Part shown: in pieces, positions 537 through 25,762 of the stretch
Position numbering within the stretch: position 1 is the stretch's first letter
How the letters are laid out: each line of letters begins with the position of its first letter
Source of the DNA: a virus
Taxonomy: Duplodnaviria; Heunggongvirae; Uroviricota; Caudoviricetes
Virus record (IMG/VR): IMGVR_UViG_3300009826_000019
Span: 43,941 to 107,940 of that record
Direction: 5' to 3' (one strand)
DNA length: 64,000 nucleotides
Notes under the pieces: model-generated
Databases searched by the model: none
What the model was told of the DNA's origin: nothing
The model's input: the letters and a program-made list of their open reading frames with translations, nothing else
Program-made: the position numbers and the translations under genes

Positions 537-576
537 CATCGGAATAATATTTTAACATTATATTTAGGATAAATAA
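537..576 (+). promoter_or_regulatory. PeSL-like early promoter element P1
   Basis: CATCGGAATAATATTTTAACATTATATTTAGGATAAATAA; ATG at 612. Confidence 0.55.
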
Positions 577-611
577 AGATAACAATAACAATTAAAAATA
601 GATAAAATGCG

Positions 612-839
612 ATGGTGGTAGAATTTAACGTAGAGGATTGTCCTTTGTGTTTTGAAAAGGATGCGGGTTGGAGTAACAGTTGTTCGTATTGTGGTCAGCC
701 TGACCCACGATTTAATGATAATAATAATGATTGTCCTTTGTGTGGAGCCGAGGGGGAGGGTTTTACAAACAGTTGTATGTATTGTAGGGGTTGCGACCCA
801 CGATTGAAGCCCATTTTTGAATGTGAAGCATCGGAATAA
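612..839 (+). CDS. small protein with two tandem CPLC...SC.YC zinc-ribbon repeats
   Basis: ORF track; internal duplication DCPLCF..NSCSYCG / DCPLCG..NSCMYCRGC; element P1 upstream; ends ...ASE* inside the next element. Confidence 0.6.
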   Translation: MVVEFNVEDCPLCFEKDAGWSNSCSYCGQPDPRFNDNNNDCPLCGAEGEGFTNSCMYCRGCDPRLKPIFECEASE

Positions 840-868
840 CATTAAGATATTATATTTGATAGTATAGT
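829..868 (+). promoter_or_regulatory. PeSL-like element P2
   Basis: CATCGGAATAACATTAAGATATTATATTTGATAGTATAG; supplies the stop (ASE*) of 612..839. Confidence 0.55.
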
Positions 869-899
869 AAATAACAATAACAATTAAAACGATAAAAAA

Positions 900-1100
900 A
901 TGAGTGTATTTGTTGGGTGGTATGAGAGTACGAATGTACACAGTGTTGAAAAGCAATATAAAGAGCGTTGTGAGGCGTTGGGTGTGGAGTTTTCGAGGTA
1001 CGATTTTGAAGACTTTTTAGAGATTTGCGAAAGCAATTTTAGTGAATGGTTGGGTTTTCAGATTGAGAATTTTCACAGAGGCGAACCTCGAAAAGTTTAA
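900..1100 (+). CDS. hypothetical early protein
   Basis: ORF track; element at 829 upstream. Confidence 0.55.
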   Translation: MSVFVGWYESTNVHSVEKQYKERCEALGVEFSRYDFEDFLEICESNFSEWLGFQIENFHRGEPRKV

Positions 1101-1144
1101 AAAAAAAATATTATATTAGTATTTATTGCAGTGAATATTGATAT

Positions 1145-1218
1145 GTGCGCGTACCCAAAATGGTTAAGGGGGCAGTCTGCAAAACTGTTTTGTGCAGGTT
1201 CGAGTCCTGTCGCGCACT
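1145..1218 (+). tRNA. tRNA-Cys (GCA)
   Basis: Manual fold: acceptor GTGCGCG/CGCGCAC; anticodon stem GCAGT/ACTGT; loop CTGCAAA; T-arm GCAGG-TTCGAGT-CCTGT. Confidence 0.65.
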
Positions 1219-1317
1219 CTATAAAAACCGTATAAAATAATCGTATTAACATTAACGTTTCTGAATTTGGTTATATGCGGTTTTTTTCTTTTGATAACAA
1301 TAACAAATAAAAACATA

Positions 1318-1602
1318 ATGAAAAACATATTAAATACGGATACTGTTTCGGTTAAGGTATTATTTACGGGTGATGATAGTACATTTTCGTTTGATATACC
1401 ATTAGATGCTATTTTAGTGGGATTGGAAGCGGAGACTATAGAGTGGCGTGAATACGACCCTGTTTACTTTGAAAGTCAAGTTAGGGTTGAGGCGGTAAGT
1501 TTGGCAATGGATTTGTTTTGGGATAAAACAAAGAATTGGGATAACTTTGATATAAATGATTTCGAGGCAAGTTTTACATATATTCAAAGCGCAGGAAAAT
1601 GA
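1318..1602 (+). CDS. hypothetical protein (start moved to the ATG after the A-rich leader)
   Basis: ORF track 1267..1602; the ATG at 1318 follows the aacaataacaaataaaaacata leader seen at other starts. Confidence 0.5.
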   Translation: MKNILNTDTVSVKVLFTGDDSTFSFDIPLDAILVGLEAETIEWREYDPVYFESQVRVEAVSLAMDLFWDKTKNWDNFDINDFEASFTYIQSAGK

Positions 1603-1805
1603 AAATACCGATTGAAAATATTGCGATAGGGGAGACTTTTAAGTTTGTGCGTACTGCTAAAAACCCGTCTTCTCCTGTATGGCAAATAGTGGAAAAATAT
1701 GGATGGGGAGGTGTTTTAATTAAACAATTTGCTCAATATGTGGGAAATAAACCCAAAACCCGAATAATTGAGGGTTGTACTGTAGTTGTTTTAGATTTTG
1801 ATTGA
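1599..1805 (+). CDS. hypothetical protein
   Basis: ORF track; ATGA overlap with the upstream gene. Confidence 0.45.
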   Translation: MKIPIENIAIGETFKFVRTAKNPSSPVWQIVEKYGWGGVLIKQFAQYVGNKPKTRIIEGCTVVVLDFD

Positions 1806-1817
1806 ATTTCGGTATAG

Positions 1818-1857
1818 CATCGGAATAATATCTTAACATTATATTTAGGATATAATC
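1818..1857 (+). promoter_or_regulatory. PeSL-like element P3
   Basis: CATCGGAATAATATCTTAACATTATATTTAGGATATAAT. Confidence 0.55.
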
Positions 1858-1874
1858 AATTAAATATTTTAGAA

Positions 1875-2384
1875 ATGAAAATAAAAGATTTTATAGGCAC
1901 GTGTGGTTTGAGTTGGAGTGAGCATGAGCGCGACTTTGTAACTAAACTAATGGAAAAAGAGGGTTTTACCTTTGATGAGTGGGCTTACGTTGAGTTTGTT
2001 CGTGAAGACTTATCATTCATTAAGAAGTTGCCGAATGTAATGTTTCAAGGTGTTCACAAAAGTTGGTACACAAACAATCGCGAAATACAATTTAAGGCTA
2101 TTCCGCGTTACATACGTATAACGTTTTGTAAAAAGGAGGGTTTTATTCAGTTTCAACCAAAAGAAGACATAACACAGCAATATAGTTGTTTTGTTAAATT
2201 GGTTGGTGGGTTTGCCTACAAAGGAACGCACAGACAAGATGAGCAACAAGACGAATATAATGATATTCATAGTGATTATCATTATGATACGGAGTTGGAT
2301 ATTATAGTTGGCGAGGGGATTGAATCAGCGGCGACTATGGTGTTAAAAACAAAAAATTACGCAAAGAAACGGGGTTGGAAATAA
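1875..2384 (+). CDS. hypothetical early protein (169 aa)
   Basis: ORF track; element at 1818. Confidence 0.6.
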   Translation: MKIKDFIGTCGLSWSEHERDFVTKLMEKEGFTFDEWAYVEFVREDLSFIKKLPNVMFQGVHKSWYTNNREIQFKAIPRYIRITFCKKEGFIQFQPKEDITQQYSCFVKLVGGFAYKGTHRQDEQQDEYNDIHSDYHYDTELDIIVGEGIESAATMVLKTKNYAKKRGWK

Positions 2385-2400
2385 CCCCTTTTTTTCATAG

Positions 2401-2440
2401 CATCGGAATAACATTTCAATTTTATATTTAGGGTATAATA
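2401..2440 (+). promoter_or_regulatory. PeSL-like element P4
   Basis: CATCGGAATAACATTTCAATTTTATATTTAGGGTATAAT. Confidence 0.55.
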
Positions 2441-2463
2441 ATAACAATACAATATTAAACAAA

Positions 2464-3135: not shown

Positions 3136-3142
3136 TCTATTA

Positions 3143-3156: not shown

Positions 3157-3168
3157 TTGGTGGGATAG

Positions 3169-3208
3169 CATCGGAATAACATTTTACTTTTATATTTAGG
3201 ATATAATA
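3169..3208 (+). promoter_or_regulatory. PeSL-like element P5
   Basis: Consensus copy after terminator hairpin 3104..3130 and the TACTCAAATGAGTA motif. Confidence 0.55.
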
Positions 3209-3225
3209 ATTAAATAACAATAACA

Positions 3226-3728: not shown

Positions 3729-3778
3729 TAAAATATTATGTGGTATGTAAGTAAGATTTACGTACCATATTTTTATTA

Positions 3779-3818
3779 CATCGGAATAATATTTTACTTT
3801 TATATTTAGGATATAATA
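3779..3818 (+). promoter_or_regulatory. PeSL-like element P6
   Basis: Consensus copy. Confidence 0.55.
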
Positions 3819-3841
3819 ATAACAATTAAAATTTTCATAAG

Positions 3842-4458: not shown

Positions 4459-4755
4459 ATGAAAACAAAAATAGAAATAGGTCGCGGTGACGTTGTTAAG
4501 TACAAATTGAAGGGACAAAAAGTAACTTTTGGGTTTGTTTTATGTACGTTGGAATTTGGCGAAATACGTACCGAAACAGACGGCGTTATATGTGAGAGCG
4601 ATGTTATTAAGGTTTATAAAGATAAAAACGGTTTCGGTCGGGATTTAGCGGATTTGTACCACAAACGAGATACGAGTTCGTATGATATTGCGATAACATT
4701 ATTAAAAACCATGCAATTTTACAAAGACCTTTTAACAGCGAAAGTTCGGAAATAG
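4459..4755 (+). CDS. hypothetical protein, paralogue family B (with 19726..20013)
   Basis: GDVVKYK...DVIKVYKDKNGFG shared with 19726..20013. Confidence 0.6.
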   Translation: MKTKIEIGRGDVVKYKLKGQKVTFGFVLCTLEFGEIRTETDGVICESDVIKVYKDKNGFGRDLADLYHKRDTSSYDIAITLLKTMQFYKDLLTAKVRK

Positions 4756-4795
4756 CATCGGAATAATATTCTAATGTTATATTTGGGGTATAAGT
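4756..4795 (+). promoter_or_regulatory. PeSL-like element P7
   Basis: Consensus copy. Confidence 0.55.
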
Positions 4796-4821
4796 TAATA
4801 ACAATAATAACAATAAATAAT

Positions 4822-5061: not shown

Positions 5062-5226
5062 ATGAGAACGTTTATATTAAACAAATATGATTTTAGAAAA
5101 TCAAATTTTCCGTTGAAAGTAGAATATGTTGAGTTTGATTCGTTGTTTGCGGCGGAAATTTACGTATCCAGGCGTAATATGCGATTAAAGCATCATAAGT
5201 GGCAGGTTGGCGGTAGTATGCGATAG
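5062..5226 (+). CDS. hypothetical small protein (54 aa)
   Basis: Manual ORF; fills a gap before the element at 5228. Confidence 0.35.
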   Translation: MRTFILNKYDFRKSNFPLKVEYVEFDSLFAAEIYVSRRNMRLKHHKWQVGGSMR

Positions 5227-5227
5227 G

Positions 5228-5267
5228 CATCGGAATAATATCCTAATTTTATATTGAGGGTATAACA
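5228..5267 (+). promoter_or_regulatory. PeSL-like element P8
   Basis: CATCGGAATAATATCCTAATTTTATATTGAGGGTATAAC. Confidence 0.55.
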
Positions 5268-5291
5268 ATAACATAATAATAAATAATAATA

Positions 5292-5582: not shown

Positions 5583-5588
5583 GGTTAG

Positions 5589-5628
5589 CATCGGAATAAT
5601 ATCCTAATTTTATATTGAGGGTATAATA
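5589..5628 (+). promoter_or_regulatory. PeSL-like element P9
   Basis: Identical to P8 over 38 nt. Confidence 0.55.
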
Positions 5629-5645
5629 ATAAAAACAACAAAACA

Positions 5646-6258: not shown

Positions 6259-6263
6259 TGAAG

Positions 6264-6303
6264 GATCGGATAACAATAGTATCTTTATATTACATATCAT
6301 ATA
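6264..6303 (+). promoter_or_regulatory. PeSL-like element, divergent variant
   Basis: GATCGGATAACAATAGTATCTTTATATTACATATCATA. Confidence 0.35.
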
Positions 6304-6322
6304 ATAATAAAAACAATAAAAA

Positions 6323-6880: not shown

Positions 6881-6974
6881 TTAATACCATTAAGAAATAA
6901 GTTATTTTTATTTATTGTTGTTGTTGTGAGCGGGGGCGTGTTTTATTCACTTCCGCTTTTTCTACATGAAATAA

Positions 6975-7014
6975 CATCGGAATAATATTATAACATTATA
7001 TTTTGGATATAATA
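6975..7014 (+). promoter_or_regulatory. PeSL-like element P10
   Basis: Consensus copy. Confidence 0.55.
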
Positions 7015-7037
7015 ATAACAAATAAAAACTTAAAAAA

Positions 7038-7379
7038 ATGGATATAGATAACAATGTAAAATTTTTATACAAACTCAAGGCGTTATTGAATGAATTTGAC
7101 GTTTCAATGCAATTTAATTGTGATGAGAGTTCCGATATGGGCGGAGTATATGATGCGCGGATTGAATTTGTTGATAACCATACGCACAAACCAATTTTCC
7201 GAACAAACTCGTCATTAGAAATAAATGCTTCGGATATAACGTTTGAAAATGAGGCGGAGGTACAAGGCGAGGTTATATACAGTGATTGTGATGCGTGGCA
7301 GTGTGAAATGTGTAACAGTGATTGTGCGCAGTACAAATATATGCGTAGGCAAATGGAGGGGCATCGGAATAATATGTAG
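7038..7379 (+). CDS. hypothetical protein
   Basis: ORF track; element at 6975; the C-terminus ...GHRNNM* is encoded by the next element. Confidence 0.55.
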   Translation: MDIDNNVKFLYKLKALLNEFDVSMQFNCDESSDMGGVYDARIEFVDNHTHKPIFRTNSSLEINASDITFENEAEVQGEVIYSDCDAWQCEMCNSDCAQYKYMRRQMEGHRNNM

Positions 7380-7401
7380 GAATTATATTTAAAGAAAATA
7401 A
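7362..7401 (+). promoter_or_regulatory. PeSL-like element P11 (degenerate 3' half)
   Basis: CATCGGAATAATATGTAGGAATTATATTTAAAG. Confidence 0.4.
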
Positions 7402-7540
7402 AAAAATTATCATTTTACTATGCAAATTTTGTTTCTTATCTTTATACCATTGATAAGGGATAACAGGAGGAAACCGCCAAGGGTATGGTGTGTCGAGAGT
7501 TGTAAGTAAAATGATAGTTTTTTAAATAAAAACAAAAAAA

Positions 7541-7750
7541 ATGACAGATAGAGAAATAAGAATGTGGGGCGAATTAAACGCCGCTAGTATGACCAAAAGA
7601 GAATACTTTATTAGTGTCGCAATAAGCGGCATATTATCGAGTGGGAATTGGGTTTCGCCTCAACGTGTTAATAGTATGGCGATACAAATTGCTGATGACC
7701 TTGTATTGAAAATGCAGGAACGTTACACTAACGCCGAAGCATCGGAATAA
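7541..7750 (+). CDS. hypothetical protein
   Basis: ORF track; ends ...EASE* within the element. Confidence 0.5.
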   Translation: MTDREIRMWGELNAASMTKREYFISVAISGILSSGNWVSPQRVNSMAIQIADDLVLKMQERYTNAEASE

Positions 7751-7779
7751 TATCCTAATTTTATATTGAGGGTATAGTA
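7740..7779 (+). promoter_or_regulatory. PeSL-like element P12
   Basis: Consensus copy. Confidence 0.55.
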
Positions 7780-7805
7780 AATAACAATAATAAACAACAA
7801 AAAAA

Positions 7806-8150
7806 ATGAATAGAATTGAAACAAACAGAGCGGTTGCTCAACTAAAGGAACAAATTTTGGTAGGAGCCGAATTGATTTACAACAACATTAGAAGTTTGTG
7901 TGACAGTTACGGCGGCGAAATTAGGGTATTTGAAATAACCATTGACAAGGGTATTGACCCAATTTCACTTTCGGATTACGAATGTGGCGTTATTTATCCA
8001 CAGGAATTATATGTGGATGAGGTAGACGGCGAAACTGTTTATCTTAGAGGTTATGACTCCGATGGAAACGACATTGGTAGTATGGATATCGGAGTTTTAT
8101 CTATCGAAGTTTTGATTGATTTTTATGAGTTTCTGTATAAAATCGTTTGA
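7806..8150 (+). CDS. hypothetical protein
   Basis: ORF track; element at 7740. Confidence 0.6.
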   Translation: MNRIETNRAVAQLKEQILVGAELIYNNIRSLCDSYGGEIRVFEITIDKGIDPISLSDYECGVIYPQELYVDEVDGETVYLRGYDSDGNDIGSMDIGVLSIEVLIDFYEFLYKIV

Positions 8151-8211
8151 TAGATCGGATAAAAAAGTTCTATTTATATTTATACAGTATAATTTATAAA
8201 AGAGTTAATCA

Positions 8212-8646: not shown

Positions 8647-8899
8647 ATTAGTGTATATTTAAAAAGTAATTTATTCATAGTTGTTAAGATAGTAATTTGG
8701 GGGTCGCATGGCGGCTATTCGGATAAAAAAAACATATTAGGCGATAGTATCAGTACCAATGTGCCTTCAGCAAGCACTACCCAGCTTTAATTGTTTTTCC
8801 CAAGCGGTAACAATGACCCCCGATTACTTTTTTGAGAATGGGCATGGAACGATAGAATCCTTGTTCGTTCTCTTTTTTTTTAATTTCTATCCACAATAA

Positions 8900-8939
8900 C
8901 ATCGGAATAATATGTTGTGATTATATTAAGAGTATAATT
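8900..8939 (+). promoter_or_regulatory. PeSL-like element P13
   Basis: Consensus copy. Confidence 0.5.
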
Positions 8940-8952
8940 AAAAATAATAACA

Positions 8953-10229: not shown

Positions 10230-10232
10230 TAG

Positions 10233-10272
10233 CATCGGAATAATATCTTAATATTATATTTAGGGTATAAAC
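10233..10272 (+). promoter_or_regulatory. PeSL-like element P14
   Basis: Consensus copy. Confidence 0.55.
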
Positions 10273-10297
10273 AATAACAATTTAAAAAAGTTTTACA

Positions 10298-10981: not shown

Positions 10982-11041
10982 GATTTTTGTTGATTATTAT
11001 TATAATTTGGGTTGAGGTTTTTATCTCAACCCATTTTTATA

Positions 11042-11081
11042 CATCGGAATAATATCTCAATTTTATATTTAGGGCATATAA
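11042..11081 (+). promoter_or_regulatory. PeSL-like element P15
   Basis: Consensus copy after hairpin GGGTTGAGG...CTCAACCC. Confidence 0.55.
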
Positions 11082-11111
11082 AAAAAAATAACAATAATTA
11101 AATTTAAAGAT

Positions 11112-11345
11112 ATGGAATACAAGGGTAAAGAAATAAGTTGTGAGGCTGAGGCGTTACGAATGATTGAGGTTGGTGACGAACTTTTGATTGGTTATTATGG
11201 TTCGGGCGGCGTTTTTGTAGAGTTTGACCGTTTTACCAACGAATTAGAAGCGGAGGAGGCGTTTGACGAAATTTACGGTACTCTATCCTATGAGGAGGAT
11301 GAGTTGTGGGAACCTAATGAGGATTGGGAGGAGGAAGCCGAATAG
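11112..11345 (+). CDS. hypothetical protein, paralogue family C (with 20893..21111)
   Basis: Shared IGYYG(S/A)G..FV..D pattern with 20893..21111; element at 11042. Confidence 0.6.
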   Translation: MEYKGKEISCEAEALRMIEVGDELLIGYYGSGGVFVEFDRFTNELEAEEAFDEIYGTLSYEEDELWEPNEDWEEEAE

Positions 11346-11385
11346 CATCGGAATAATATCCTAATTTTATATTTGATAGTATAGT
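11346..11385 (+). promoter_or_regulatory. PeSL-like element P16
   Basis: Consensus copy. Confidence 0.55.
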
Positions 11386-11412
11386 AATAACAAACAATAA
11401 TAGTTAAATAAT

Positions 11413-12140: not shown

Positions 12141-12156
12141 AAAAAAGTGGGTAGCG

Positions 12157-12196
12157 CATCGGATTACTACCCTCTTTTTATATTAAGAATATAAAA
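12157..12196 (+). promoter_or_regulatory. PeSL-like element P17, variant embedded in terminator hairpin 12149..12172
   Basis: GGGTAG-CGCATCGGATTA-CTACCC then TCTTTTTATATTAAGAATATAA. Confidence 0.5.
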
Positions 12197-12219
12197 TAAC
12201 AATAAAAAATAAAATACAA

Positions 12220-12798: not shown

Positions 12799-12814
12799 AA
12801 AAAAATGGGGGTAG

Positions 12815-12854
12815 CATCGGATTACTACCCCCTTTTTATATTTAGAATATAACA
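12815..12854 (+). promoter_or_regulatory. PeSL-like element P18, variant embedded in hairpin 12807..12832
   Basis: GGGGGTAG-CATCGGATTA-CTACCCCC then TTTTTATATTTAGAATATAA. Confidence 0.5.
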
Positions 12855-12873
12855 ATAATAAAACTAATAAAAA

Positions 12874-13158: not shown

Positions 13159-13187
13159 TATCCTAATGTTATATTGAGAGTATATAA
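13148..13187 (+). promoter_or_regulatory. PeSL-like element P19
   Basis: Consensus copy. Confidence 0.55.
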
Positions 13188-13223
13188 AAAACATAACAAT
13201 AACAAACAATAAAAATAAATACA

Positions 13224-13873: not shown

Positions 13874-13893
13874 ACAAAGAATAATAGGGGTAG

Positions 13894-13933
13894 GATCGGA
13901 ATAATATCCTACCCATATATTTAGAATATAACA
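13894..13933 (+). promoter_or_regulatory. PeSL-like element P20 (hairpin GTAGGAT..ATCCTAC)
   Basis: The CGGAATAAT core lies in the loop of a 7-bp stem. Confidence 0.5.
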
Positions 13934-13957
13934 ATAACAAATAATAATTAAATAAAA

Positions 13958-14266: not shown

Positions 14267-14358
14267 TTGAAAAAGATAAAAGCTTATTGTTTTTTTATTA
14301 TTGTGCGGGTTGTATGGGGATAGTAAATGTATTATCCCCACGCAATACCATTCCACAG

Positions 14359-14398
14359 CATCGGAATAATATTGCACAATTATATTAAAAGTATAACA
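14359..14398 (+). promoter_or_regulatory. PeSL-like element P21
   Basis: Consensus copy after hairpin 14316..14342. Confidence 0.55.
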
Positions 14399-14414
14399 AA
14401 TAAAATAAAACACT

Positions 14415-15179: not shown

Positions 15180-15349
15180 AAAACAAAAGATATGATAATG
15201 TTTTATGAAATATTAAATTATGTTTTGCTTGGTATGGTCATATTTTGGTCTATTTGGGGGGTTGCTTTGTGTGTTGGATTGATTGGCGCAATTATCAAAT
15301 TTACAATCGAAGCGTTTACAGGAAAATAAAAAATGTTATTCCGACATAA

Positions 15350-15389
15350 CATCGGAATAACATTGAAAAATTATAATGAATAGTATAAG
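15350..15389 (+). promoter_or_regulatory. PeSL-like element P22 inside a perfect 12-bp inverted repeat
   Basis: ATGTTATTCCGA-CATAACA-TCGGAATAACAT. Confidence 0.5.
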
Positions 15390-15435
15390 AAATTTACATA
15401 AAAATAATAGTAATAACAATAAAAATATAATAAAA

Positions 15436-15846: not shown

Positions 15847-15900
15847 AAAATATTTGGGTGTGGGATTAACCTGCACCCATTTTTCATTAAAAACTGTTAG

Positions 15901-15940
15901 CATCGGAATAATATGTTACTTTTATATTAAGAGTATAGTA
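15901..15940 (+). promoter_or_regulatory. PeSL-like element P23
   Basis: Consensus copy. Confidence 0.55.
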
Positions 15941-15966
15941 ATAACAATAATAAAACAAATAATAAA

Positions 15967-16611: not shown

Positions 16612-16615
16612 TTAG

Positions 16616-16655
16616 CATCGGATTAAAATACTAAAATTATATTACAAGTATTAAG
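16616..16655 (+). promoter_or_regulatory. PeSL-like element P24 (variant)
   Basis: CATCGGATTAAAATACTAAAATTATATTACAAGTATTAAG. Confidence 0.45.
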
Positions 16656-16678
16656 TAACAATAATAAAATTTAAACAA

Positions 16679-17398: not shown

Positions 17399-17598
17399 CA
17401 ATTTATTACGTAGGTGATCAACAGTTTTTCAAGGCTTCCTCCGCTAAAAAATATATGCGGGAAACAGGATTAACAGGTTCCAAAGTAAAAGTTTATTCAA
17501 ATGGCGATTGGATACCAATGGGCGAAATAACCCTCAAAGGTAGCAATAAGTCGTTTATTGCAAACAGTCCCCGAAATATGAAAAAGTCGAATTATTGA
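17395..17598 (+). CDS. hypothetical protein
   Basis: ORF track; ATGA overlap. Confidence 0.45.
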   Translation: MTIYYVGDQQFFKASSAKKYMRETGLTGSKVKVYSNGDWIPMGEITLKGSNKSFIANSPRNMKKSNY

Positions 17599-17638
17599 CA
17601 TCGGAATAATATCTTAATTTTATATTAAGGGTATAGTA
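17599..17638 (+). promoter_or_regulatory. PeSL-like element P25
   Basis: Consensus copy. Confidence 0.55.
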
Positions 17639-17661
17639 ATAACAATAATAAAAAATATAAA

Positions 17662-18269: not shown

Positions 18270-18272
18270 TAG

Positions 18273-18312
18273 CATCGGATAAACAAATTACTTTTATATT
18301 ACAATCATAACA
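18273..18312 (+). promoter_or_regulatory. PeSL-like element P26 (variant)
   Basis: CATCGGATAAACAAATTACTTTTATATTACAATCATAAC. Confidence 0.45.
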
Positions 18313-18328
18313 ATAAAACAATAATAAG

Positions 18329-18712
18329 ATGACAATAGAAGAAGTTGTAGATTACGCTCACTTTATTGGGGCAGAGTTGAACGGAGAGTTGGGTAAAATT
18401 GGTATTTACGCTCAGGTAAACGAAACTTTTGGGAACTTTTTTGCGTTCTATATTGATACAATGTATCGGACAAAAGACGGTGGAAACCTATTTCAACACA
18501 AACAATTTAGAGTTGAGGGTGGTGTGGATAATGAAATATTGCGTGAGCGTTTGAAAGCAGTTTATCACGAAATACTTTGCGAATACTTTGTATTTTCAAA
18601 AGAAACATATCTGAATTGCCGCTGTGAATATTGCGGCAGGGAGTTTACTCCGAAACAAAATGAGAGTGAAAACTTTTGCAACGAATATTGTGAGAGAAAC
18701 GCTTACGTGTAG
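18329..18712 (+). CDS. hypothetical protein with C-terminal zinc ribbon (CRCEYCG...CNEYCERN)
   Basis: ORF track; variant element at 18273. Confidence 0.55.
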   Translation: MTIEEVVDYAHFIGAELNGELGKIGIYAQVNETFGNFFAFYIDTMYRTKDGGNLFQHKQFRVEGGVDNEILRERLKAVYHEILCEYFVFSKETYLNCRCEYCGREFTPKQNESENFCNEYCERNAYV

Positions 18713-18752
18713 ATCGGAATAATATCCTAATGTTATATTAAGAGTATTAATA
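18713..18752 (+). promoter_or_regulatory. PeSL-like element P27
   Basis: GATCGGAATAATATCCTAATGTTATATTAAGAGTATTAA. Confidence 0.55.
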
Positions 18753-19140: not shown

Positions 19141-19680
19141 ATGAAAACTTTAGAACAATTAAGATTACATAACCCCTACGAAACGCGAGAGATGGGGTCT
19201 TCGCTGAAATATTTGAATAGGCGGTATCATGAGGGTAAAATTGATTTCAACGTTTATCTTACCTCAATAGACCAAAATTTACAACGCCCATTTGTTTGGA
19301 CACTGCATCAGAAGCAGGAGTTGGTGCGTTCAGTGTTTTATAGGCGACCGATTACCGATTTGACGATTATCAATCGTTTTGACGATACATTGGAAATAAT
19401 TGACGGAAAACAAAGATTACATAGTCTTTTGTTGTTTTTAAATAACGATTTCGGTTTGTGGTTTGACGAAAATGAATATCATAAATTTGAAACATTACCT
19501 CCCGATTATCAAAAGGAATTTGAAAATTATGTGGTACGTTATACTGAAATACTTGAATGGACAACCCCAATCCCCGATTTGTTTAAAATACAGTTTTTTA
19601 ATCAAATAAATTTTGCGGGTACTCCGCAGGATAGGGATCATATTAAGAGTTTAATGAAATTGTCAGGTACATCGGAATAA
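19141..19680 (+). CDS. DUF262 (ParB/GmrSD-N-like) domain protein
   Basis: QRPFVW...IIDGKQRLHSLLLFL matches the DUF262 DGQQR-type motif; unusual upstream region of three TATATATACAA repeats instead of the PeSL element. Confidence 0.55.
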   Translation: MKTLEQLRLHNPYETREMGSSLKYLNRRYHEGKIDFNVYLTSIDQNLQRPFVWTLHQKQELVRSVFYRRPITDLTIINRFDDTLEIIDGKQRLHSLLLFLNNDFGLWFDENEYHKFETLPPDYQKEFENYVVRYTEILEWTTPIPDLFKIQFFNQINFAGTPQDRDHIKSLMKLSGTSE

Positions 19681-19709
19681 TATCTGAATGTTATATTAAG
19701 GGTATAACG
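19670..19709 (+). promoter_or_regulatory. PeSL-like element P28
   Basis: Consensus copy; supplies the TSE* stop of 19141..19680. Confidence 0.55.
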
Positions 19710-19725
19710 ATTAAAAAACAATAAA

Positions 19726-20021: not shown

Positions 20022-20264
20022 ATGACAAAAGTAGATTATAAAGTACAAGGTGTACGCGGTGGTAATCCACAGTACAAAGAAAATGTTGGTTATGTGTCAA
20101 TTTTTGCTGACAATTTAACAATAACTGCCGATGCTTTTGAGGGTTTTGGTAGTGATTACAAAAGGCGTGAGCAAACGCAAATAACCATACAAACTAATGA
20201 AGACGGAATTTTGTTTGAGGGTAGTATAGACGACCTTCGGAAAATTCTGAAAACATCGGAATAA
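20022..20264 (+). CDS. hypothetical protein
   Basis: ORF track; ends ...KTSE* inside the element. Confidence 0.5.
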   Translation: MTKVDYKVQGVRGGNPQYKENVGYVSIFADNLTITADAFEGFGSDYKRREQTQITIQTNEDGILFEGSIDDLRKILKTSE

Positions 20265-20293
20265 TATCCTAATATTATATTAAGGGTACATTA
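20254..20293 (+). promoter_or_regulatory. PeSL-like element P29
   Basis: Consensus copy. Confidence 0.55.
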
Positions 20294-20324
20294 AAAGTAG
20301 TAACAAACATAAAAATAAATAAAA

Positions 20325-20892: not shown

Positions 20893-21111
20893 ATGCAATA
20901 TAGAGGACAAAATATAGATATTGATACCGACAAATTGTGTGTATTAAAAGAGAATAACGAATTTGTTATCGGTTATTATGGTGCGGGTAGTATCTTTGTT
21001 ACGATTGATAAAACAGAAAGTTTTGAGGAGGCGGATGCTATTTTTGATTTACTTTACGATGGTTTACTTCAAGAAGAAGAATTTGAACGGAAAGTATTTG
21101 CATCGGAATAA
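20893..21111 (+). CDS. hypothetical protein, paralogue family C
   Basis: See 11112..11345. Confidence 0.55.
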   Translation: MQYRGQNIDIDTDKLCVLKENNEFVIGYYGAGSIFVTIDKTESFEEADAIFDLLYDGLLQEEEFERKVFASE

Positions 21112-21140
21112 TATTTTACTTTTATATTAAGAGCATAACA
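21101..21140 (+). promoter_or_regulatory. PeSL-like element P30
   Basis: Consensus copy. Confidence 0.55.
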
Positions 21141-21155
21141 AATAACATAACACAA

Positions 21156-21654: not shown

Positions 21655-21834
21655 ATGGATAATACTGAATGGAATCCTGGATATTCTCCTTGTTCAAATT
21701 GTTCGGAAACATATCGAAAAAGACCTCGTTGTAAAAAATTGGGGTGTCCTGTTTATGTGGAAATTGAACGTAAAGCAGATGATTTACTTGAAAAATACTC
21801 AAATGAGTATAGTATTAAAAGAAGATCGGAATAA
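21655..21834 (+). CDS. small Cys-rich (zinc-ribbon-like) protein, 59 aa
   Basis: Manual ORF; CSNCSE...CKKLGC; the stop is supplied by the next PeSL-like element (RSE*). Confidence 0.4.
   Translation: MDNTEWNPGYSPCSNCSETYRKRPRCKKLGCPVYVEIERKADDLLEKYSNEYSIKRRSE
21796..21809 (+). promoter_or_regulatory. TACTCAAATGAGTA motif
   Basis: Inside small ORF 21655..21834, where it encodes YSNEY. Confidence 0.5.
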
Positions 21835-21863
21835 TATTGTATTTTTATATTAAGAACATAACA
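21824..21863 (+). promoter_or_regulatory. PeSL-like element P31
   Basis: GATCGGAATAATATTGTATTTTTATATTAAGAACATAAC. Confidence 0.5.
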
Positions 21864-21881
21864 AAAATAATAATAATAAAA

Positions 21882-22814: not shown

Positions 22815-22819
22815 TTAAG

Positions 22820-22859
22820 GATCGGATTACCTTTTTACATTTATATTAAGGGTATAGAA
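22820..22859 (+). promoter_or_regulatory. PeSL-like element P32 (variant)
   Basis: GATCGGATTACCTTTTTACATTTATATTAAGGGTATAGA. Confidence 0.45.
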
Positions 22860-22861
22860 AA

Positions 22862-23628: not shown

Positions 23629-23631
23629 CAA

Positions 23632-23645: not shown

Positions 23646-23660
23646 TAAATACCCAATAAA

Positions 23661-24077: not shown

Positions 24078-24078
24078 A

Positions 24079-24249
24079 ATGACAACAGAAGAAATTAAAA
24101 AATGGTTGCAATCGGAAATTGATTTGATTGAAAAGGATTGGGATCAATTTCCACCACAATATTGTGGGGCTGTTGAAGCAGCGATTCAAACACGAGAAAA
24201 AGATGCTAAAATTGAATTATTGTATAGATTAATAAGTAATTTGGAGTAA
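24079..24249 (+). CDS. hypothetical small protein
   Basis: Manual ORF. Confidence 0.35.
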   Translation: MTTEEIKKWLQSEIDLIEKDWDQFPPQYCGAVEAAIQTREKDAKIELLYRLISNLE

Positions 24250-24250
24250 A

Positions 24251-24469
24251 ATGACAAAAAAACAAAGAGAATATAGCGAAGCTCGTGCTATCGGACAATA
24301 TGGTCTGAATAAAAGAGATTACTTTGCCGCATTAGCAATGCAGGGGATGATAGCAAACCCAACTTATCTTCACCCCACTATACTTGCAGAAAGAAGTGTT
24401 GAATACGCTGATGCTGTGATAAAAAGATTAGTAGAAACCGAACCATTCCCGATATATGATGAAGATTAA
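24251..24469 (+). CDS. hypothetical protein
   Basis: ORF track. Confidence 0.5.
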   Translation: MTKKQREYSEARAIGQYGLNKRDYFAALAMQGMIANPTYLHPTILAERSVEYADAVIKRLVETEPFPIYDED

Positions 24470-24737
24470 AAAACATTTATACGTAAAATACGGTCTTATA
24501 ACCTTTAAAGACGTTATGCGCATGTTATTTGGTGTGAAAAAGTATTTCTATTTGGAACCCTTCATATACATTAATGGTTGGGGGAAACCCTGTGAAACTC
24601 ACGAAATGAGTAGCGTGGTGCGTTGGTTGGATAAGAAAACTGTTTCTGAATACAGCGAAGTACGTGCTATGAGGTATTGGAATAATATTTTAACGGAAAA
24701 ATACAAACTCCAAAATTCAGCAATATATTATTTTTAA
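24456..24737 (+). CDS. hypothetical protein
   Basis: ORF track. Confidence 0.45.
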   Translation: MMKIKKHLYVKYGLITFKDVMRMLFGVKKYFYLEPFIYINGWGKPCETHEMSSVVRWLDKKTVSEYSEVRAMRYWNNILTEKYKLQNSAIYYF

Positions 24738-24805
24738 ATCATAATGTATAATATCCCGAACATTATCCTAATACAATGTTTAATATTTTGAACATTGTAT
24801 TGTAG

Positions 24806-24845
24806 GATCGGATTATGATATTAGAATTATATTTTGGTTTAAACT
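24806..24845 (+). promoter_or_regulatory. PeSL-like element P33 (variant)
   Basis: GATCGGATTATGATATTAGAATTATATTTTGG. Confidence 0.4.
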
Positions 24846-24861
24846 AAAAAAACAATTAAAA

Positions 24862-25437
24862 ATGAAATCTGAATATAAGTTATCAAAGGATGCGCGAACG
24901 CGTCATGTAAATAGTAAGGAACCTGATTTTTTACCTTATTCGACTTTGTGTGTAAAACCAAGTGAATATTGGCATAAAACCGTTCAAATGGAGGGGTTTG
25001 CTGAACAAATAGAAAATATGTGGAATAGCGAAAATAGTAGTTATACGGAGTTTATCCTAAAATTACCTATGCGTTTTCCGTATCGAATGATGCCCACAAT
25101 AATAAGGGTACATAAAGTTTTCGGTATTGTTAGGGGGGAAGATATTTTTACTAACCGTAAAGTAAATCATTTGGAAGTTGAAATTTTGTTTGACTGCGCT
25201 GTTACAAGTGTTGTTCGCTTTTCAATTCACATGTACGATTTAAAGGGAAATTTGAATACACGCGAACTCCTCGAATTGTATATTACAATGGGGTTTGAAC
25301 AATTTAACAATATATGGGAAGAAACAAATAAACACTTAAACAACGATTATCAAACCGCTCGTAGAGGTGGTAATGCTATCACAGACGTAAATTACACTAA
25401 AGAGGAATTATTGGTGTTACTCAAAGAGTATTTGTAG
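24862..25437 (+). CDS. hypothetical protein (191 aa)
   Basis: ORF track; variant element at 24806. Confidence 0.55.
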   Translation: MKSEYKLSKDARTRHVNSKEPDFLPYSTLCVKPSEYWHKTVQMEGFAEQIENMWNSENSSYTEFILKLPMRFPYRMMPTIIRVHKVFGIVRGEDIFTNRKVNHLEVEILFDCAVTSVVRFSIHMYDLKGNLNTRELLELYITMGFEQFNNIWEETNKHLNNDYQTARRGGNAITDVNYTKEELLVLLKEYL

Positions 25438-25491
25438 ATTGGATAAAAAAGTTGTTAATTTATTAGACAGTAAAAATTTTAATTAAAATAA

Positions 25492-25662
25492 ATGCAAATG
25501 GATAATATGTTCAAAGTAGTGGCAGTAGAGGATGACGGTAAGGTTAATAACCACTATTATCCCACGTTAAAAACAGCGATAAATGCTGCTGACGCAATTA
25601 GCGAGTTCTTTTCAGATGCTGTCGAGGTATTTGATAAAGAAGGCAAGCGTGTTCATTATTAG
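25492..25662 (+). CDS. hypothetical small protein
   Basis: Manual ORF followed by terminator hairpin 25673..25698. Confidence 0.35.
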   Translation: MQMDNMFKVVAVEDDGKVNNHYYPTLKTAINAADAISEFFSDAVEVFDKEGKRVHY

Positions 25663-25672
25663 TGATGGTACA

Positions 25673-25704
25673 TCCACCCGATTAAGTTTGGGTGGGTGTT
25701 TTTT
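25673..25704 (+). terminator. rho-independent terminator
   Basis: ATCCACCCG-ATTAAGTTT-GGGTGGGTG followed by T6. Confidence 0.65.
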
Positions 25705-25722
25705 CCATTAAATTCCGAATAG

Positions 25723-25762
25723 CATCGGAATAATATTATAAGATTATATTAGATAACAGTAT
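25723..25762 (+). promoter_or_regulatory. PeSL-like element P34 with flanking 7-bp inverted repeat ATTCCGA/TCGGAAT
   Basis: Last + strand copy. Confidence 0.5.

What the first reader, a model, noticed from the sequence alone, without database searches (positions are those of the whole stretch)
537..25762. About 36 copies of a ~40-nt conserved element (CATCGGAATAAT-N-TTATATTNAGGGTATAA) punctuate the early region: PeSL-like promoter cassettes that often also donate the upstream stop codon
The element precedes almost every small + strand gene at a fixed distance of about 60-75 nt from the ATG, followed by an AATAACAATAA-type leader. Two minus-strand copies precede minus-strand transcription units (42915..42954 before 42094..42918, and 58570..58609 before tRNA-Tyr), which argues for promoter function rather than a translational signal. 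Many copies overlap a hairpin: GTAGGAT/ATCCTAC at 13894; GGGGGTAG/CTACCCCC at 12815, where the CATCGGATTA core sits in the terminator loop; a perfect 12-bp palindrome at 15350; ATTCCGA/TCGGAAT at 25723. The TCG-GAA-TAA of the core is the in-frame stop of many upstream genes (C-termini ...ASE*, ...TSE*, ...RSE*, ...NNM*). This matches the promoter-early stem-loop (PeSL) cassettes reported as drivers of modular gene shuffling in hyperplastic regions of T4-type phages, but the sequence is different and presumably adapted to a non-enterobacterial RNA polymerase.
Basis: partly seen in the sequence, partly recalled or inferred. Interest (0 to 1): 0.6.

Follow-up and report, generated by a model that had tools for sequence, protein, structure and literature searches.

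The report
Repeated non-canonical promoter boxes, jumbo phage
A giant uncultivated phage has at least 57 near-identical 44-base signals, one before every one to four small early genes; they look like promoters, but their sequence does not match the promoter type expected for the likely host group and used at the same positions by other jumbo phage contigs that share one of its early genes.

Summary
The strict core ATCGGA-N15-TATATT occurs 36 times in the window against 0.02 expected. With two one-mismatch copies there are 38: 36 on the + strand (534-25763) and 2 on the - strand (before ORF 42094-42918, and between tRNA-Thr and tRNA-Tyr). The array runs past the window edge, with 19 more copies in the 9.8 kb upstream.

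Every copy is intergenic and points the same way as the next gene. The start codon lies a median 66 nt downstream, and 22 of 54 upstream ORFs stop inside the element. It has no conserved RNA structure, no half-copies and unrelated flanking genes.

Best reading: a promoter class with a -35-like ATCGGA block, a -10/-7-like TATATT block and a predicted start in GTATAA.

The PeSL label is only partly supported. Stem-loops accompany about 40% of copies (background 19-25%), and there is no sigma-70 or canonical Bacteroidota consensus. Other jumbo-phage contigs sharing an early gene carry dense arrays of canonical TTTG-N20-TAnCTTTG promoters at equivalent positions. That suggests this phage uses a different specificity factor. 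No relative carries this element, so recombination at the elements could not be tested.

The parts
534..577 (+). element copy
   Evidence: PWM 52.3; the upstream ORF's TAG is idx 0-2
826..869 (+). element copy
   Evidence: PWM 31.3; the upstream ORF stops at the TAA of GGAATAA
1815..1858 (+). element copy
   Evidence: PWM 54.4
2398..2441 (+). element copy
   Evidence: PWM 55.3; terminator 2371-2388 plus T7 lies just upstream
3166..3209 (+). element copy
   Evidence: PWM 55.4; preceded by hairpin motif 3142-3157
3776..3819 (+). element copy
   Evidence: PWM 52.0; terminator-like stem 3738-3770 upstream
4753..4796 (+). element copy
   Evidence: PWM 52.3; the upstream ORF's TAG is idx 0-2
5225..5268 (+). 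element copy
   Evidence: PWM 56.0
5586..5629 (+). element copy
   Evidence: PWM 59.3; no significant fold, z -1.27
6261..6304 (+). element copy (divergent)
   Evidence: PWM 24.2; strict core present; hairpin motif 6244-6259 is adjacent
6972..7015 (+). element copy
   Evidence: PWM 47.8
7359..7402 (+). element copy
   Evidence: PWM 35.2; the upstream ORF stops at idx 18 (...NNM*)
7737..7780 (+). element copy
   Evidence: PWM 56.3; the upstream ORF stops at TAA idx 11
8150..8193 (+). weak element copy
   Evidence: Exact strict core ATCGGA-N15-TATATT but PWM only 3.4; also holds CTATTTATA
8897..8940 (+). element copy
   Evidence: PWM 46.2
10230..10273 (+). element copy
   Evidence: PWM 56.5
11039..11082 (+). 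element copy
   Evidence: PWM 47.7; terminator 11008-11033 upstream
11343..11386 (+). element copy
   Evidence: PWM 43.0
12154..12197 (+). element copy inside a terminator hairpin
   Evidence: PWM 38.6; stem GGGTAG/CTACCC with the ATCGGA block in the loop, then a T run
12812..12855 (+). element copy inside a terminator hairpin
   Evidence: PWM 44.3; stem GGGGGTAG/CTACCCCC, -15.8 kcal/mol, z -3.35
13145..13188 (+). element copy
   Evidence: PWM 52.6
13891..13934 (+). element copy with overlapping hairpin
   Evidence: PWM 46.9; stem GGGTAGGAT/ATCCTACCC
14356..14399 (+). element copy
   Evidence: PWM 47.8
15347..15390 (+). element copy with an inverted partial copy upstream
   Evidence: PWM 28.3; 13-bp inverted repeat AATGTTATTCCGA/TCGGAATAACATT at 15332-15364; block 2 reads TATAAT
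15898..15941 (+). element copy
   Evidence: PWM 54.3; terminator 15855-15879 upstream
16613..16656 (+). element copy
   Evidence: PWM 37.5
17596..17639 (+). element copy
   Evidence: PWM 53.6
18270..18313 (+). element copy
   Evidence: PWM 33.8; a terminator and hairpin motif 18255-18270 abut it
18709..18752 (+). element copy
   Evidence: PWM 46.3
19667..19710 (+). element copy
   Evidence: PWM 48.5
20251..20294 (+). element copy
   Evidence: PWM 50.7
21098..21141 (+). element copy
   Evidence: PWM 52.7
21821..21864 (+). element copy
   Evidence: PWM 46.5
22817..22860 (+). element copy
   Evidence: PWM 41.8
24803..24846 (+). element copy
   Evidence: PWM 28.3; 11-bp stem upstream
25720..25763 (+). 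last + strand element copy
   Evidence: PWM 30.7; inverted 7-mer ATTCCGA/TCGGAAT; followed by 8 genes with no further copy
42914..42957 (-). element copy before - strand ORF 42094-42918
   Evidence: PWM 35.9; strict core
58569..58612 (-). element copy between tRNA-Thr and tRNA-Tyr
   Evidence: PWM 28.0; fills the 45-nt spacer, where other spacers are 5-8 nt; constrains the start site to upstream of idx 44

Best explanation
The elements are promoters. Each is one bipartite unit:
- an invariant upstream block ATCGGA, within (T)AGCATCGGAATAAT, in the place of a -35 element;
- exactly 15 nt of spacer;
- an invariant TATATT, within TTATATT(T/A/G)(A/G), as the -10/-7 element;
- a moderately conserved (G)GGTATAA in which transcription is predicted to start, about idx 36-38.

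The predicted transcript has an A-rich leader of about 29 nt without a Shine-Dalgarno (AATAACAATAA) and covers one to four small genes. At least 57 such units, about one per 660 nt, drive a + strand block of at least 36 kb. The block consists almost entirely of genes of unknown function, in a roughly 368-kb phage with a T4-type portal. Two more copies drive a - strand gene pair and eight tRNAs.

Shown: the anatomy, copy number, orientation and spacing; the sharp homology boundaries; the lack of RNA structure; and the mismatch to the known consensus sequences.

Inferred: promoter activity, the start site and the timing.

Which polymerase form reads the elements is not resolved. I lean to a specificity determinant other than the canonical host primary sigma: a phage-encoded or phage-redirected sigma or activator, or an injected polymerase (about 0.45 absolute). 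Unaided host holoenzyme is about 0.35.

As a side effect, the 44-nt identical tracts probably act as recombination linkers between unrelated gene cassettes. This is inferred from spacer variants shared by unlinked copies and from similarity falling with distance.
For: Statistics: 36 exact cores against 0.02 expected. PWM scores are 24-59 against 8.6 for the best shuffle. In 56 copies ATCGGA is 56/56 and TTATATT is 54-56/56, with invariant spacing.

Position and orientation: all 54 + strand PWM copies (35 in the window, 19 upstream) lie in an all-+ gene block, and both - copies precede - strand genes or tRNAs. The start codon follows at a median 66 nt, IQR 61-69. The two blocks never occur apart.

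Transcription-unit boundaries: rho-independent terminator-like hairpins lie just upstream of, or around, several copies.

Start site: the copy between tRNA-Thr and tRNA-Tyr ends 1 nt before the mature tRNA-Tyr. The start must therefore lie upstream of idx 44, which makes TATATT and not the downstream TATAAT the -10/-7 box.

Not an RNA element: there is no consensus structure (0 pairs), no Rfam family, and a typical copy folds no better than shuffles.

Not explained by gene duplication: only 4 weak paralogue pairs exist among 75 proteins, and homology is bounded to idx 0 to about 45.

Comparators: four jumbo viral contigs share an early-gene family with this phage. They carry 18-25 canonical TTTG-N20-TAnCTTTG promoters per 20 kb at the equivalent positions, with the same AACAATTAAA leaders.

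A second promoter class: a distinct motif, CTATTTATA, precedes the portal and other genes outside the array (12 against 1.4 expected). This fits separate temporal classes.

For a non-canonical factor: only 7 of 56 copies have a perfect TAnnTTTG. There is no TTTG at -33, and the conserved block sits 3-5 nt closer to the -7 box. A matrix trained on the comparator promoters scores the elements -9 to -29 and finds nothing above shuffles in 74 kb.
Against: There are no transcript data, so activity, start site and timing are all inferred.

The host is unknown. Bacteroidota is inferred only from leaders without a Shine-Dalgarno and from homologues of one early gene in conjugative-transposon-like contexts. 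If the host's primary sigma has an unusual specificity, these could be ordinary host-type promoters.

T4-like phages are known to start infection with host polymerase. No sigma, MotA/AsiA or RNA polymerase gene was seen in the 74 kb examined.

The upstream block matches no described sigma or activator site.

Invariance of 56/56 could partly reflect gene conversion rather than selection on recognition.
Confidence: 0.8

Rival explanations
1. These are ordinary immediate-early promoters read by unmodified host RNA polymerase with its primary sigma. It is nested within the promoter reading and is a rival only on which factor reads the element.
For: The portal and prohead protease are T4-type, and T4-like phages use host polymerase for early genes (PMC2839356). 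Block 2 plus two bases, TATATT(T)(A/G), matches 5-6 of the 6 specified positions of the Bacteroidota -7 box TAnnTTTG, and 7 of 56 copies match perfectly (consensus from PMC7366714). [quoted passage not shown] No phage sigma or polymerase was seen in the 74 kb examined.
Against: The invariant ATCGGA has no counterpart in the host-type consensus and lies at a different spacing. The G of TTTG is missing in 45 of 56 copies. Comparator jumbo phages with the same leaders use textbook TTTG-N20-TAnCTTTG, and a matrix built from them rejects these elements. 56/56 invariance is unusual for sites read by a primary sigma.
Confidence: 0.35
2. The conserved 12-mer CATCGGAATAAT is mainly an operator for a phage DNA-binding regulator that blocks or times transcription. 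This would resemble the oriented, intergenic 'stoperators' of cluster A mycobacteriophages. The promoter-like part would be secondary.
For: The site is asymmetric, high-copy, always in one orientation relative to transcription, intergenic, and often overlaps stop codons. The 12-mer is the most conserved part. A small OmpR-type winged-helix protein (PF00486) is encoded within the array upstream of the window (L158:1564-1905).
Against: The 12-mer never occurs without TTATATT at exactly the same spacing, as expected for one recognition unit. Copies sit at transcription-unit starts, after terminators, and before a tRNA block. No integrase or repressor suggesting a temperate lifestyle was seen in the window.
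Confidence: 0.08
3. The elements are mainly recombination sites, that is cassette junctions as in integrons or PeSL mini-circles. They would be kept because they move gene cassettes, and any promoter activity would be incidental.
For: Flanking genes are unrelated while 41-44 nt are identical, including the 'free' spacer, in unlinked copies such as 826 and two upstream copies. Similarity falls with distance (Mantel rho -0.28, none of 2000 permutations as low). Two copies have inverted partial copies next to them. Homologues of one cassette gene occur in unrelated mobile elements and phages without the element.
Against: No recombinase was seen. There are no half or chimeric copies. Strict co-orientation and a fixed distance to the start codon are not needed for recombination. 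No variant genome with an indel at an element was found, and all contigs recovered were identical.
Confidence: 0.05
4. The element acts in RNA, as a 5' UTR signal, a processing site or a terminator.
For: It is strand-specific, lies at a fixed distance from the start codon, and a few copies overlap stable hairpins.
Against: There is no conserved pairing in 35 aligned copies, no Rfam match, and a typical copy folds like its shuffles. Most copies lack a T run. Internal genes of the operons have the same leaders without the element.
Confidence: 0.02

Closest known systems
PeSLs (promoter-early stem-loops) of T4-like phages (Arbiol et al. 2010, PMC2839356; Comeau et al. 2014, PMC4122927)
   Same: Many copies of a conserved intergenic regulatory cassette lie in a region of small genes of unknown function, in a phage with T4-type head genes. 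[quoted passage not shown] Some copies combine a terminator hairpin with the promoter, placed upstream of it or around the -35-equivalent block, which are subclasses described for PeSLs. Identical tracts of about 44 nt sit between unrelated genes.
   Different: The promoter part matches neither sigma-70 nor the likely host's primary-sigma consensus. The stem-loop is present in only about 40% of copies, against 19-25% background. There is no Shine-Dalgarno. Conservation is much tighter, with two blocks invariant in 56/56. Recombination and mini-circles are untested.
T4 middle promoters and PmSLs (MotA box plus -10; sigma appropriation by MotA/AsiA)
   Same: A -10-type element is kept while the -35 position holds a different, highly conserved box a fixed short distance upstream. 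Such promoters also occur as repeated cassettes (PmSLs in phage nt-1, PMC4122927).
   Different: The box is ATCGGAATAA, not TGCTT. The gap to the -10-type box is 10 nt after the 12-mer, against 11-13 nt for T4 (T4 figure from my own knowledge). No MotA or AsiA homologue was seen in the 74 kb examined.
Middle promoters of Bacillus phage SPO1, read by the phage sigma gp28 (AGGAGA-N17-TTTNTTT; from my own knowledge)
   Same: A two-block promoter with near-invariant, non-host hexamers is repeated many times in a large lytic phage.
   Different: The sequences, spacing and host phylum are unrelated. No phage sigma has been identified here.
Canonical Bacteroidota promoter arrays in other jumbo viral contigs (L162-L165, found here)
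   Same: Density is similar (18-25 per 20 kb on the gene strand, against about 27 here). They occupy the same position before small genes, with the same AACAATTAAA-type leaders. The same small hairpin ACTCAAATGAGT lies between genes, and one gene family is shared.
   Different: Their boxes are ATTTGG-N-TA(T/C)CTTTGTA, that is TTTG-N20-TAnnTTTG, the textbook primary-sigma promoter of the phylum. This phage has ATCGGA-N15-TATATT and none of the canonical type in 74 kb.
Stoperators of cluster A mycobacteriophages (from my own knowledge)
   Same: Dozens of asymmetric sites lie in intergenic positions, in one orientation relative to transcription, often at stop codons.
   Different: Those are 13-14 bp stand-alone repressor sites in temperate phages. 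Here the conserved block is always tied to a -10-type box at fixed spacing.

Membership tests
PeSL (T4-like phages) | The genome is a T4-like myovirus | tested here: met
   Portal matches PF07230 at E 1.8e-55. Prohead protease matches PF03420 (S77). The relationship is distant: the best cultured-phage portal match is 33% identical.
PeSL (T4-like phages) | Repeated intergenic cassettes lie in a hyperplastic region of small genes of unknown function and point with those genes | tested here: met
   36 + strand copies lie among about 70 small + genes. 19 of the 20 largest have no Pfam match above the curated cut-off. 19 more copies lie upstream.
PeSL (T4-like phages) | The cassette contains a strong promoter of the host primary-sigma type (-35, N17, -10) | tested here: not met
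   The sigma-70 scan is barely enriched (117 against 92 +/- 10) and does not pick out the elements. The Bacteroidota TTTG/TAnnTTTG consensus is not matched.
PeSL (T4-like phages) | A stem-loop or terminator is a constituent of the cassette | tested here: inconclusive
   15 of 37 copies have a perfect stem of at least 6 bp within -45 to +25, against 25% of random windows and 19% of shuffles. Six are terminator-like: 2398, 3776, 11039, 12154, 12812, 15898, and three more follow a terminator plus the small hairpin. Most copies have none.
PeSL (T4-like phages) | The 3' end of the cassette is a Shine-Dalgarno followed by the start codon | tested here: not met
   No gene in the window has a Shine-Dalgarno. 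An A-rich AACAATAA leader takes its place, and the start codon lies a median 66 nt from the element start.
PeSL (T4-like phages) | Recombination between copies produces indels, replacements or mini-circles in close relatives | not testable with these tools
   No genome carrying the element other than identical copies of this phage was found. There is only indirect support: shared spacer variants between unlinked copies, and similarity falling with distance.
Canonical Bacteroidota primary-sigma promoter | TAnnTTTG at -7 | tested here: not met
   Only 7 of 56 copies match perfectly. The commonest forms are TATATTTA (20) and TATATTAA (13).
Canonical Bacteroidota primary-sigma promoter | TTTG about 19-21 nt upstream of the -7 box | tested here: not met
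   That position reads AGCA. The invariant ATCGGA lies 15 nt from TATATT. A matrix from 43 comparator promoters scores the nine elements tested -9 to -29.
T4 middle (MotA-dependent) promoter / PmSL | The -35 is replaced by a conserved activator box at a fixed distance from a -10-type element | tested here: met
   This holds for geometry only: the 12-mer box ends 10 nt before TATATT in all copies.
T4 middle (MotA-dependent) promoter / PmSL | MotA box sequence TGCTT, with MotA and AsiA genes present | tested here: not met
   The box sequence is unrelated. No MotA or AsiA family hit was found among the window and flank proteins scanned. The other roughly 295 kb of the genome were not seen.
Stoperator-type operator array | Stand-alone asymmetric repressor sites in a temperate phage | tested here: not met
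   The block never occurs without TTATATT at fixed spacing. No integrase or repressor was seen in the window.
Structured RNA family | Conserved secondary structure or an Rfam match | tested here: not met
   There are 0 consensus pairs in 35 copies and only tRNAs in Rfam.

The most novel reading that the evidence does not exclude
The ATCGGA-N15-TATATT element is the recognition site of a phage-specified transcription determinant. This could be a phage sigma, a MotA-like appropriator or a virion-delivered polymerase, in a jumbo phage with T4-type head genes that likely infects Bacteroidota. The phage would then run its whole early-type gene block, and with the CTATTTATA class possibly all its genes, independently of the host's canonical promoter code. 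The identical 44-nt tracts would double as linkers for shuffling gene cassettes.
Probability: 0.4. Interest if true: 0.65.

Novelty: new variant of a known kind. Interest (0 to 1): 0.5.

Why it matters
Dense arrays of conserved promoters before small genes of unknown function are known from T4-like coliphages and vibriophages. There they organise early transcription and are proposed to drive gene-cassette shuffling.

This case extends the pattern to an uncultivated phage of about 368 kb, probably of Bacteroidota. The twist is that the promoter code is the phage's own. It matches neither the code expected of the host phylum nor the one that other jumbo-phage contigs sharing one of its early genes use at equivalent positions.

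If confirmed, it gives a ready 44-nt probe for fishing out an unknown transcription specificity factor. It also gives a set of at least 57 natural variants for defining what that factor recognises. In addition it would be a compact, strong, orthogonal promoter candidate for Bacteroidota genetics.

Tried and rejected
- One search scanned viral contigs with the wrong inter-block spacing (N10 instead of N8). Its 5 hits were chance matches and the scan was wasted.
- Correctly spaced exact scans of viral contigs, metagenome contigs and genome contigs gave only single-copy chance hits. No relative carries the element.
- Megablast of the window against GenBank phages found only tRNA matches.
- The closest portal relative in IMG/VR (50% identity, 360-kb contig, L133) has no copy in the 22 kb retrievable. 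Its early region could not be reached.
- The first 50 kb of Flavobacterium phage immuto, the closest cultured portal relative with a Bacteroidota host (33% identity), have no high-copy motif.
- The 'stops in all three frames' idea holds for only 11 of 37 copies, against 15% of shuffles. It is not a design feature.
- Tandem gene duplication does not explain the repeats: there are only 4 weak paralogue pairs.
- A conserved RNA structure was rejected.
- TATAAT (idx 36-41) as the -10 box was rejected. It would put the start site inside tRNA-Tyr, and it is less conserved than TATATT.
- Sigma-54 and ECF-type geometries were considered by eye and do not fit the conserved positions.
- Literature searches for the motif, the hairpin motif and the sample accession found nothing relevant.
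- Walking further upstream along the 368-kb contig was not possible, because look-ups accept only proteins encoded in the window.

Full report

Yes. CATCGGAATAAT with up to 2 mismatches occurs 45 times against 10 expected.

A 44-nt weight matrix was refined on the copies (consensus TAGCATCGGAATAATATCTTAATTTTATATTTAGGGTATAATAA, about 40 bits). It separates cleanly 35 + strand copies between 534 and 25763 (scores 24-59) and two - strand copies, at 42957..42914 and 58612..58569. The best score in 50 shuffles was 8.6.

The minimal core ATCGGA-N15-TATATT gives 36 exact matches against 0.02 expected. These include one further weak + copy at 8150-8193. The two remaining copies have one mismatch in the second block. 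The window therefore holds 38 copies: 36 on the + strand and 2 on the - strand.

**2. The array is larger than the finding.**

The window comes from a contig of about 368 kb. The same sequence is also held as identical shorter contigs from other samples and assemblies. Locus L158 supplies 9,761 nt upstream of window position 1. It holds 19 more + strand copies.

There are therefore at least 55 + strand copies (54 by PWM plus the weak copy at 8150) over at least 35.5 kb, with a median spacing of 658 nt.

In a 56-copy matrix the invariant positions are:
- A4 T5 C6 G7 G8 A9 and A12, each 56/56;
- T24 through T30 (TTATATT), 54-56/56.

The spacing between the two blocks never varies. Neither block occurs alone beyond chance.

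**3. Anatomy relative to genes.**

Simple gene calling gives about 75 + strand ORFs in 1-28 kb with 83% coding density. About half are directly preceded by a copy, so each copy heads a unit of one to four genes.

An ORF of at least 40 codons starts 55-85 nt after the element start in 50 of 53 copies (median 66, IQR 61-69).

The upstream ORF ends inside the element in 22 of 54 cases. Nine end at the leading TAG/TAA/TGA. Stops in all three frames occur in only 11 of 37 copies, so that is not a design feature.

The leader motif TAACAATAA is enriched (24 against 3.45, with 23 on the + strand). It also precedes internal genes that have no element. No gene in the window has a Shine-Dalgarno. The leader is therefore a translation-initiation feature and not part of the repeat.

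Both - strand copies face - strand targets:
- One precedes ORF 42094-42918 and a carbonic-anhydrase gene.
- The other exactly fills the 45-nt gap between tRNA-Thr and tRNA-Tyr, at the head of eight tRNAs. The other spacers in that cluster are 5-8 nt.

**4. What it is not.**

- It is not a structured RNA. RNAalifold predicts no pairs in 35 aligned copies. Rfam finds only tRNAs. A typical copy folds no better than its shuffles (z -1.27).
- It is not a by-product of gene duplication. Among 75 early proteins there are only four weak paralogue pairs at 23-46% identity. Homology between copies starts sharply at idx 0 and fades by about idx 45, with unrelated flanks.
- It is not a sigma-70 promoter. 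A sigma-70 scan is barely enriched and does not pick out the elements.

**5. Hairpins.**

However, a perfect stem of at least 6 bp lies within -45 to +25 of only 15 of 37 copies. The control values are 25% of random windows and 19% of shuffles.

Six of these look like intrinsic terminators. They lie upstream of copies 2398, 3776, 11039 and 15898, or wrap the ATCGGA block in copies 12154 and 12812. Three more copies follow a terminator plus a small conserved hairpin. Two copies have an inverted partial copy of the core next to them, at 15332-15364 and 25712-25731.

The terminator-plus-promoter composite therefore exists, but only in a minority of copies.

**6. Most likely mechanism.**

The copies are strictly co-oriented and intergenic, and lie at a fixed short distance from the start codon. 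They have two invariant blocks at invariant spacing, and terminators lie just upstream of several copies. Together these describe a promoter with sigma-70-family geometry.

CATCGG-N16-TATATT is 22 bp from block centre to block centre. The tRNA-Tyr copy ends 1 nt before the mature tRNA. This rules out the downstream TATAAT-like block as the -10 element, because the start site would then fall inside the tRNA. The predicted start is therefore 5-9 nt after TATATT, in GTATAA. That gives a 7-nt tRNA leader and mRNA leaders of about 29 nt.

A second, different motif, CTATTTATA, lies 20-40 nt before the start codons of the portal gene and other genes outside the array (12 against 1.4 expected). This fits separate temporal promoter classes.

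**7. Which polymerase or sigma reads the elements?**

The host is unknown. Two lines point to Bacteroidota:
- The leaders are A-rich and lack a Shine-Dalgarno, which is characteristic of that phylum (PMC7366714).
- The 50%-identical homologues of early gene 2464-3066 lie next to DUF3873, PcfK and integrases with an Arm-DNA-bind_5 domain. These are conjugative-transposon-like contexts.

The primary sigma of that phylum reads TTTG (-33) and TAnnTTTG (-7). The element fits this poorly:
- Block 2 reads TATATT(T/A/G)(A/G), and only 7 of 56 copies are a perfect TAnnTTTG.
- The -33 position reads AGCA.
- The invariant ATCGGA sits 3-5 nt too close to the -7 box.
- The full canonical pattern is at chance level in the window.

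**8. Comparators.**

A profile of the 2464-3066 family recovered four jumbo viral contigs (215-380 kb, GC 25-28%; L162-L165). Their small-gene regions carry 18-25 copies per 20 kb, on the gene strand, of ATTAAC..AAAATATTTGG-N-TA(T/C)CTTTGTA. In 31 of 37 cases this is TTTG-N20-TAnCTTTG. The chance expectation is about 2.2. These promoters have the same AACAATTAAA leaders, and some have a stem-loop in the spacer.

These are textbook host-type promoter arrays at the positions that the ATCGGA element occupies here. This supports the promoter reading by analogy of position.

It also shows that this phage's code is different. A matrix trained on 43 comparator promoters finds nothing above shuffles in the 74 kb available, and scores the nine elements tested -9 to -29.

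I therefore lean to a specificity determinant other than the canonical host sigma: a phage sigma or activator made from an immediate-early region elsewhere in the 368 kb, or an injected enzyme. I cannot exclude an unusual host sigma. No sigma, MotA/AsiA or polymerase gene was seen in the parts examined. A small OmpR-type winged-helix protein is encoded behind one upstream copy (L158:1564-1905). It is only a speculative candidate.

**9. Comparison with PeSLs.**

PeSLs are defined as follows (PMC2839356; PMC4122927):
- a strong sigma-70-like early promoter with an AT-rich upstream region;
- a stem-loop that terminates transcription, in one of five positions relative to the promoter;
- a position in hyperplastic regions, flanking genes of unknown function;
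- a 3' end consisting of a Shine-Dalgarno and the start codon;
- recombination between copies that produces indels and mini-circles.

Here the genomic setting and the cassette layout match. The host-type promoter and the Shine-Dalgarno do not. The stem-loop is optional. The recombination behaviour could not be tested.

Indirect support for recombination or gene conversion does exist. Unlinked copies share identical spacers, for example copy 826 and two copies 3-6 kb upstream of the window. Pairwise identity falls with distance (Mantel rho -0.28, none of 2000 permutations as low).

The closer mechanistic analogues may be activator- or phage-sigma-dependent classes, such as T4 middle promoters and PmSLs, or SPO1 gp28 promoters. 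The resemblance is in architecture only.

**10. Verdict.**

The finding is a real and extensive promoter-like array. Its function as promoters is well supported by anatomy but not shown. It is a new variant of a known kind, namely repeated phage promoter cassettes. Its distinguishing features are the non-canonical, near-invariant recognition sequence and its setting in a jumbo phage that probably infects Bacteroidota. Interest is moderate (0.5). It would rise if a phage-specified factor or cassette shuffling at the elements were demonstrated.

Noticed in passing
window 186-201, 3142-3157, 6244-6259, 9599-9614, 13859-13874, 18255-18270, 20855-20870, 21795-21810, 23631-23646, 26854-26869, 27723-27738; also L158 (5 more upstream) and L162-L165: A second repeat, ATACTCAAATGAGTAY (6-bp stem, AAAT loop, about -5 kcal/mol), has 11 copies, all in + orientation, against 0.12 expected. 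It usually lies right after a stop codon or a GC-rich terminator and just before the promoter element or a start codon. The same core ACTCAAATGAGT occurs 2-4 times per 20 kb, again on the gene strand and between genes, in four other jumbo viral contigs whose promoters are different. The sequence, not just the fold, is therefore conserved across distant phages. Its function is unknown; it could be a terminator, a processing site or a protein-binding site.
   Followed up: partly
window 28052-28060(-), 29875-29883(-), 32018-32026(-), 34751-34759(+), 43038-43046(+), 44960-44968(+), 46417-46425(+), 56000-56008(+), 58951-58959(-), 60962-60970(-), 61048-61056(+), 8170-8178(+): The motif CTATTTATA occurs 12 times against 1.4 expected. 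It lies 20-40 nt upstream of the start codons of the portal gene and several other genes outside the early array, on the coding strand. It is a candidate late or middle promoter class. TATTTATA is the reverse complement of the T4 late promoter TATAAATA, which may be coincidence.
   Followed up: partly
L162-L165 (IMG/VR 3300045988 contigs, 215-380 kb): These jumbo viral contigs carry dense arrays of canonical Bacteroidota promoters (TTTG-N20-TAnCTTTG, preceded by ATTAAC..AAAA). Some have a stem-loop in the spacer, which is a PeSL-like architecture with the host-type promoter of that phylum. I found no mention of it in the papers searched.
   Followed up: partly
L163 3786, 4697, 8445, 9841, 10904, 12680 (+) and equivalents in L162, L164, L165: A repeat of about 45 nt, GGTAG.AGTAA.AT..TA.AGTATAGTCTCCAA, lies about 25 nt downstream of some of those canonical promoters, with 6-8 copies per 20 kb. 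It is followed by TTAA-rich sequence rather than an obvious start codon. It could be a family of small RNAs or leader elements.
   Followed up: no
L148 (JGI 3300042600 contig, 20.7 kb), e.g. upstream of the genes at 6861 and 10340: Another phage-like contig with a homologue of early gene 2464-3066 has sigma-54-like TGGCA(C/T)-N5-TTGCA/TTTGA motifs, plus repeated ACGGCAAATAATGGAACTTTG and AACGGTATTTGGCAACGCAGCGGCGG boxes, before its small genes. This is a third, different upstream code for the same kind of gene block.
   Followed up: no
window 31607-31987(-), 43063-43827(+), 45899-46243(-), 41487-42086(-), 49395-51311(-), 51329-51796(-); L158:1564-1905: The phage encodes signalling and regulatory proteins that are unusual for a phage: a SiaC-family phosphoprotein, a histidine kinase (HisKA + HATPase_c), a STAS-domain protein of the anti-sigma-antagonist type, a beta-carbonic anhydrase, Hsp70 and Hsp20, an eIF-1a-like protein, and an OmpR-type winged-helix protein within the early array. 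The partner-switch-type proteins could bear on sigma-factor control.
   Followed up: no
window 58483-58687 (-): The promoter element sits in the only long spacer (45 nt) of a nine-tRNA cluster, between tRNA-Thr and tRNA-Tyr. The cluster is therefore split into a one-tRNA part and an eight-tRNA part. The latter has its own promoter copy, which ends 1 nt before the mature tRNA-Tyr.
   Followed up: yes
window 15332-15364 and 25712-25731: Two element copies are preceded by an inverted partial copy of their own core (AATGTTATTCCGA/TCGGAATAACATT, and ATTCCGA/TCGGAAT). These form perfect palindromes. They could be scars of recombination between oppositely oriented copies, or sites for a dimeric binding protein.
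   Followed up: partly
window 47447-47665 (inside ORF 46899-48599): A tandem duplication of about 115 nt at about 90% identity lies inside a 566-aa ORF of unknown function.
   Followed up: no
window 19141-19680 (+): One gene of the early array has a GmrSD_N (DUF262-type) domain at E 1e-13. This is a partial homologue of type IV restriction enzymes inside a block of otherwise unknown genes.
   Followed up: no
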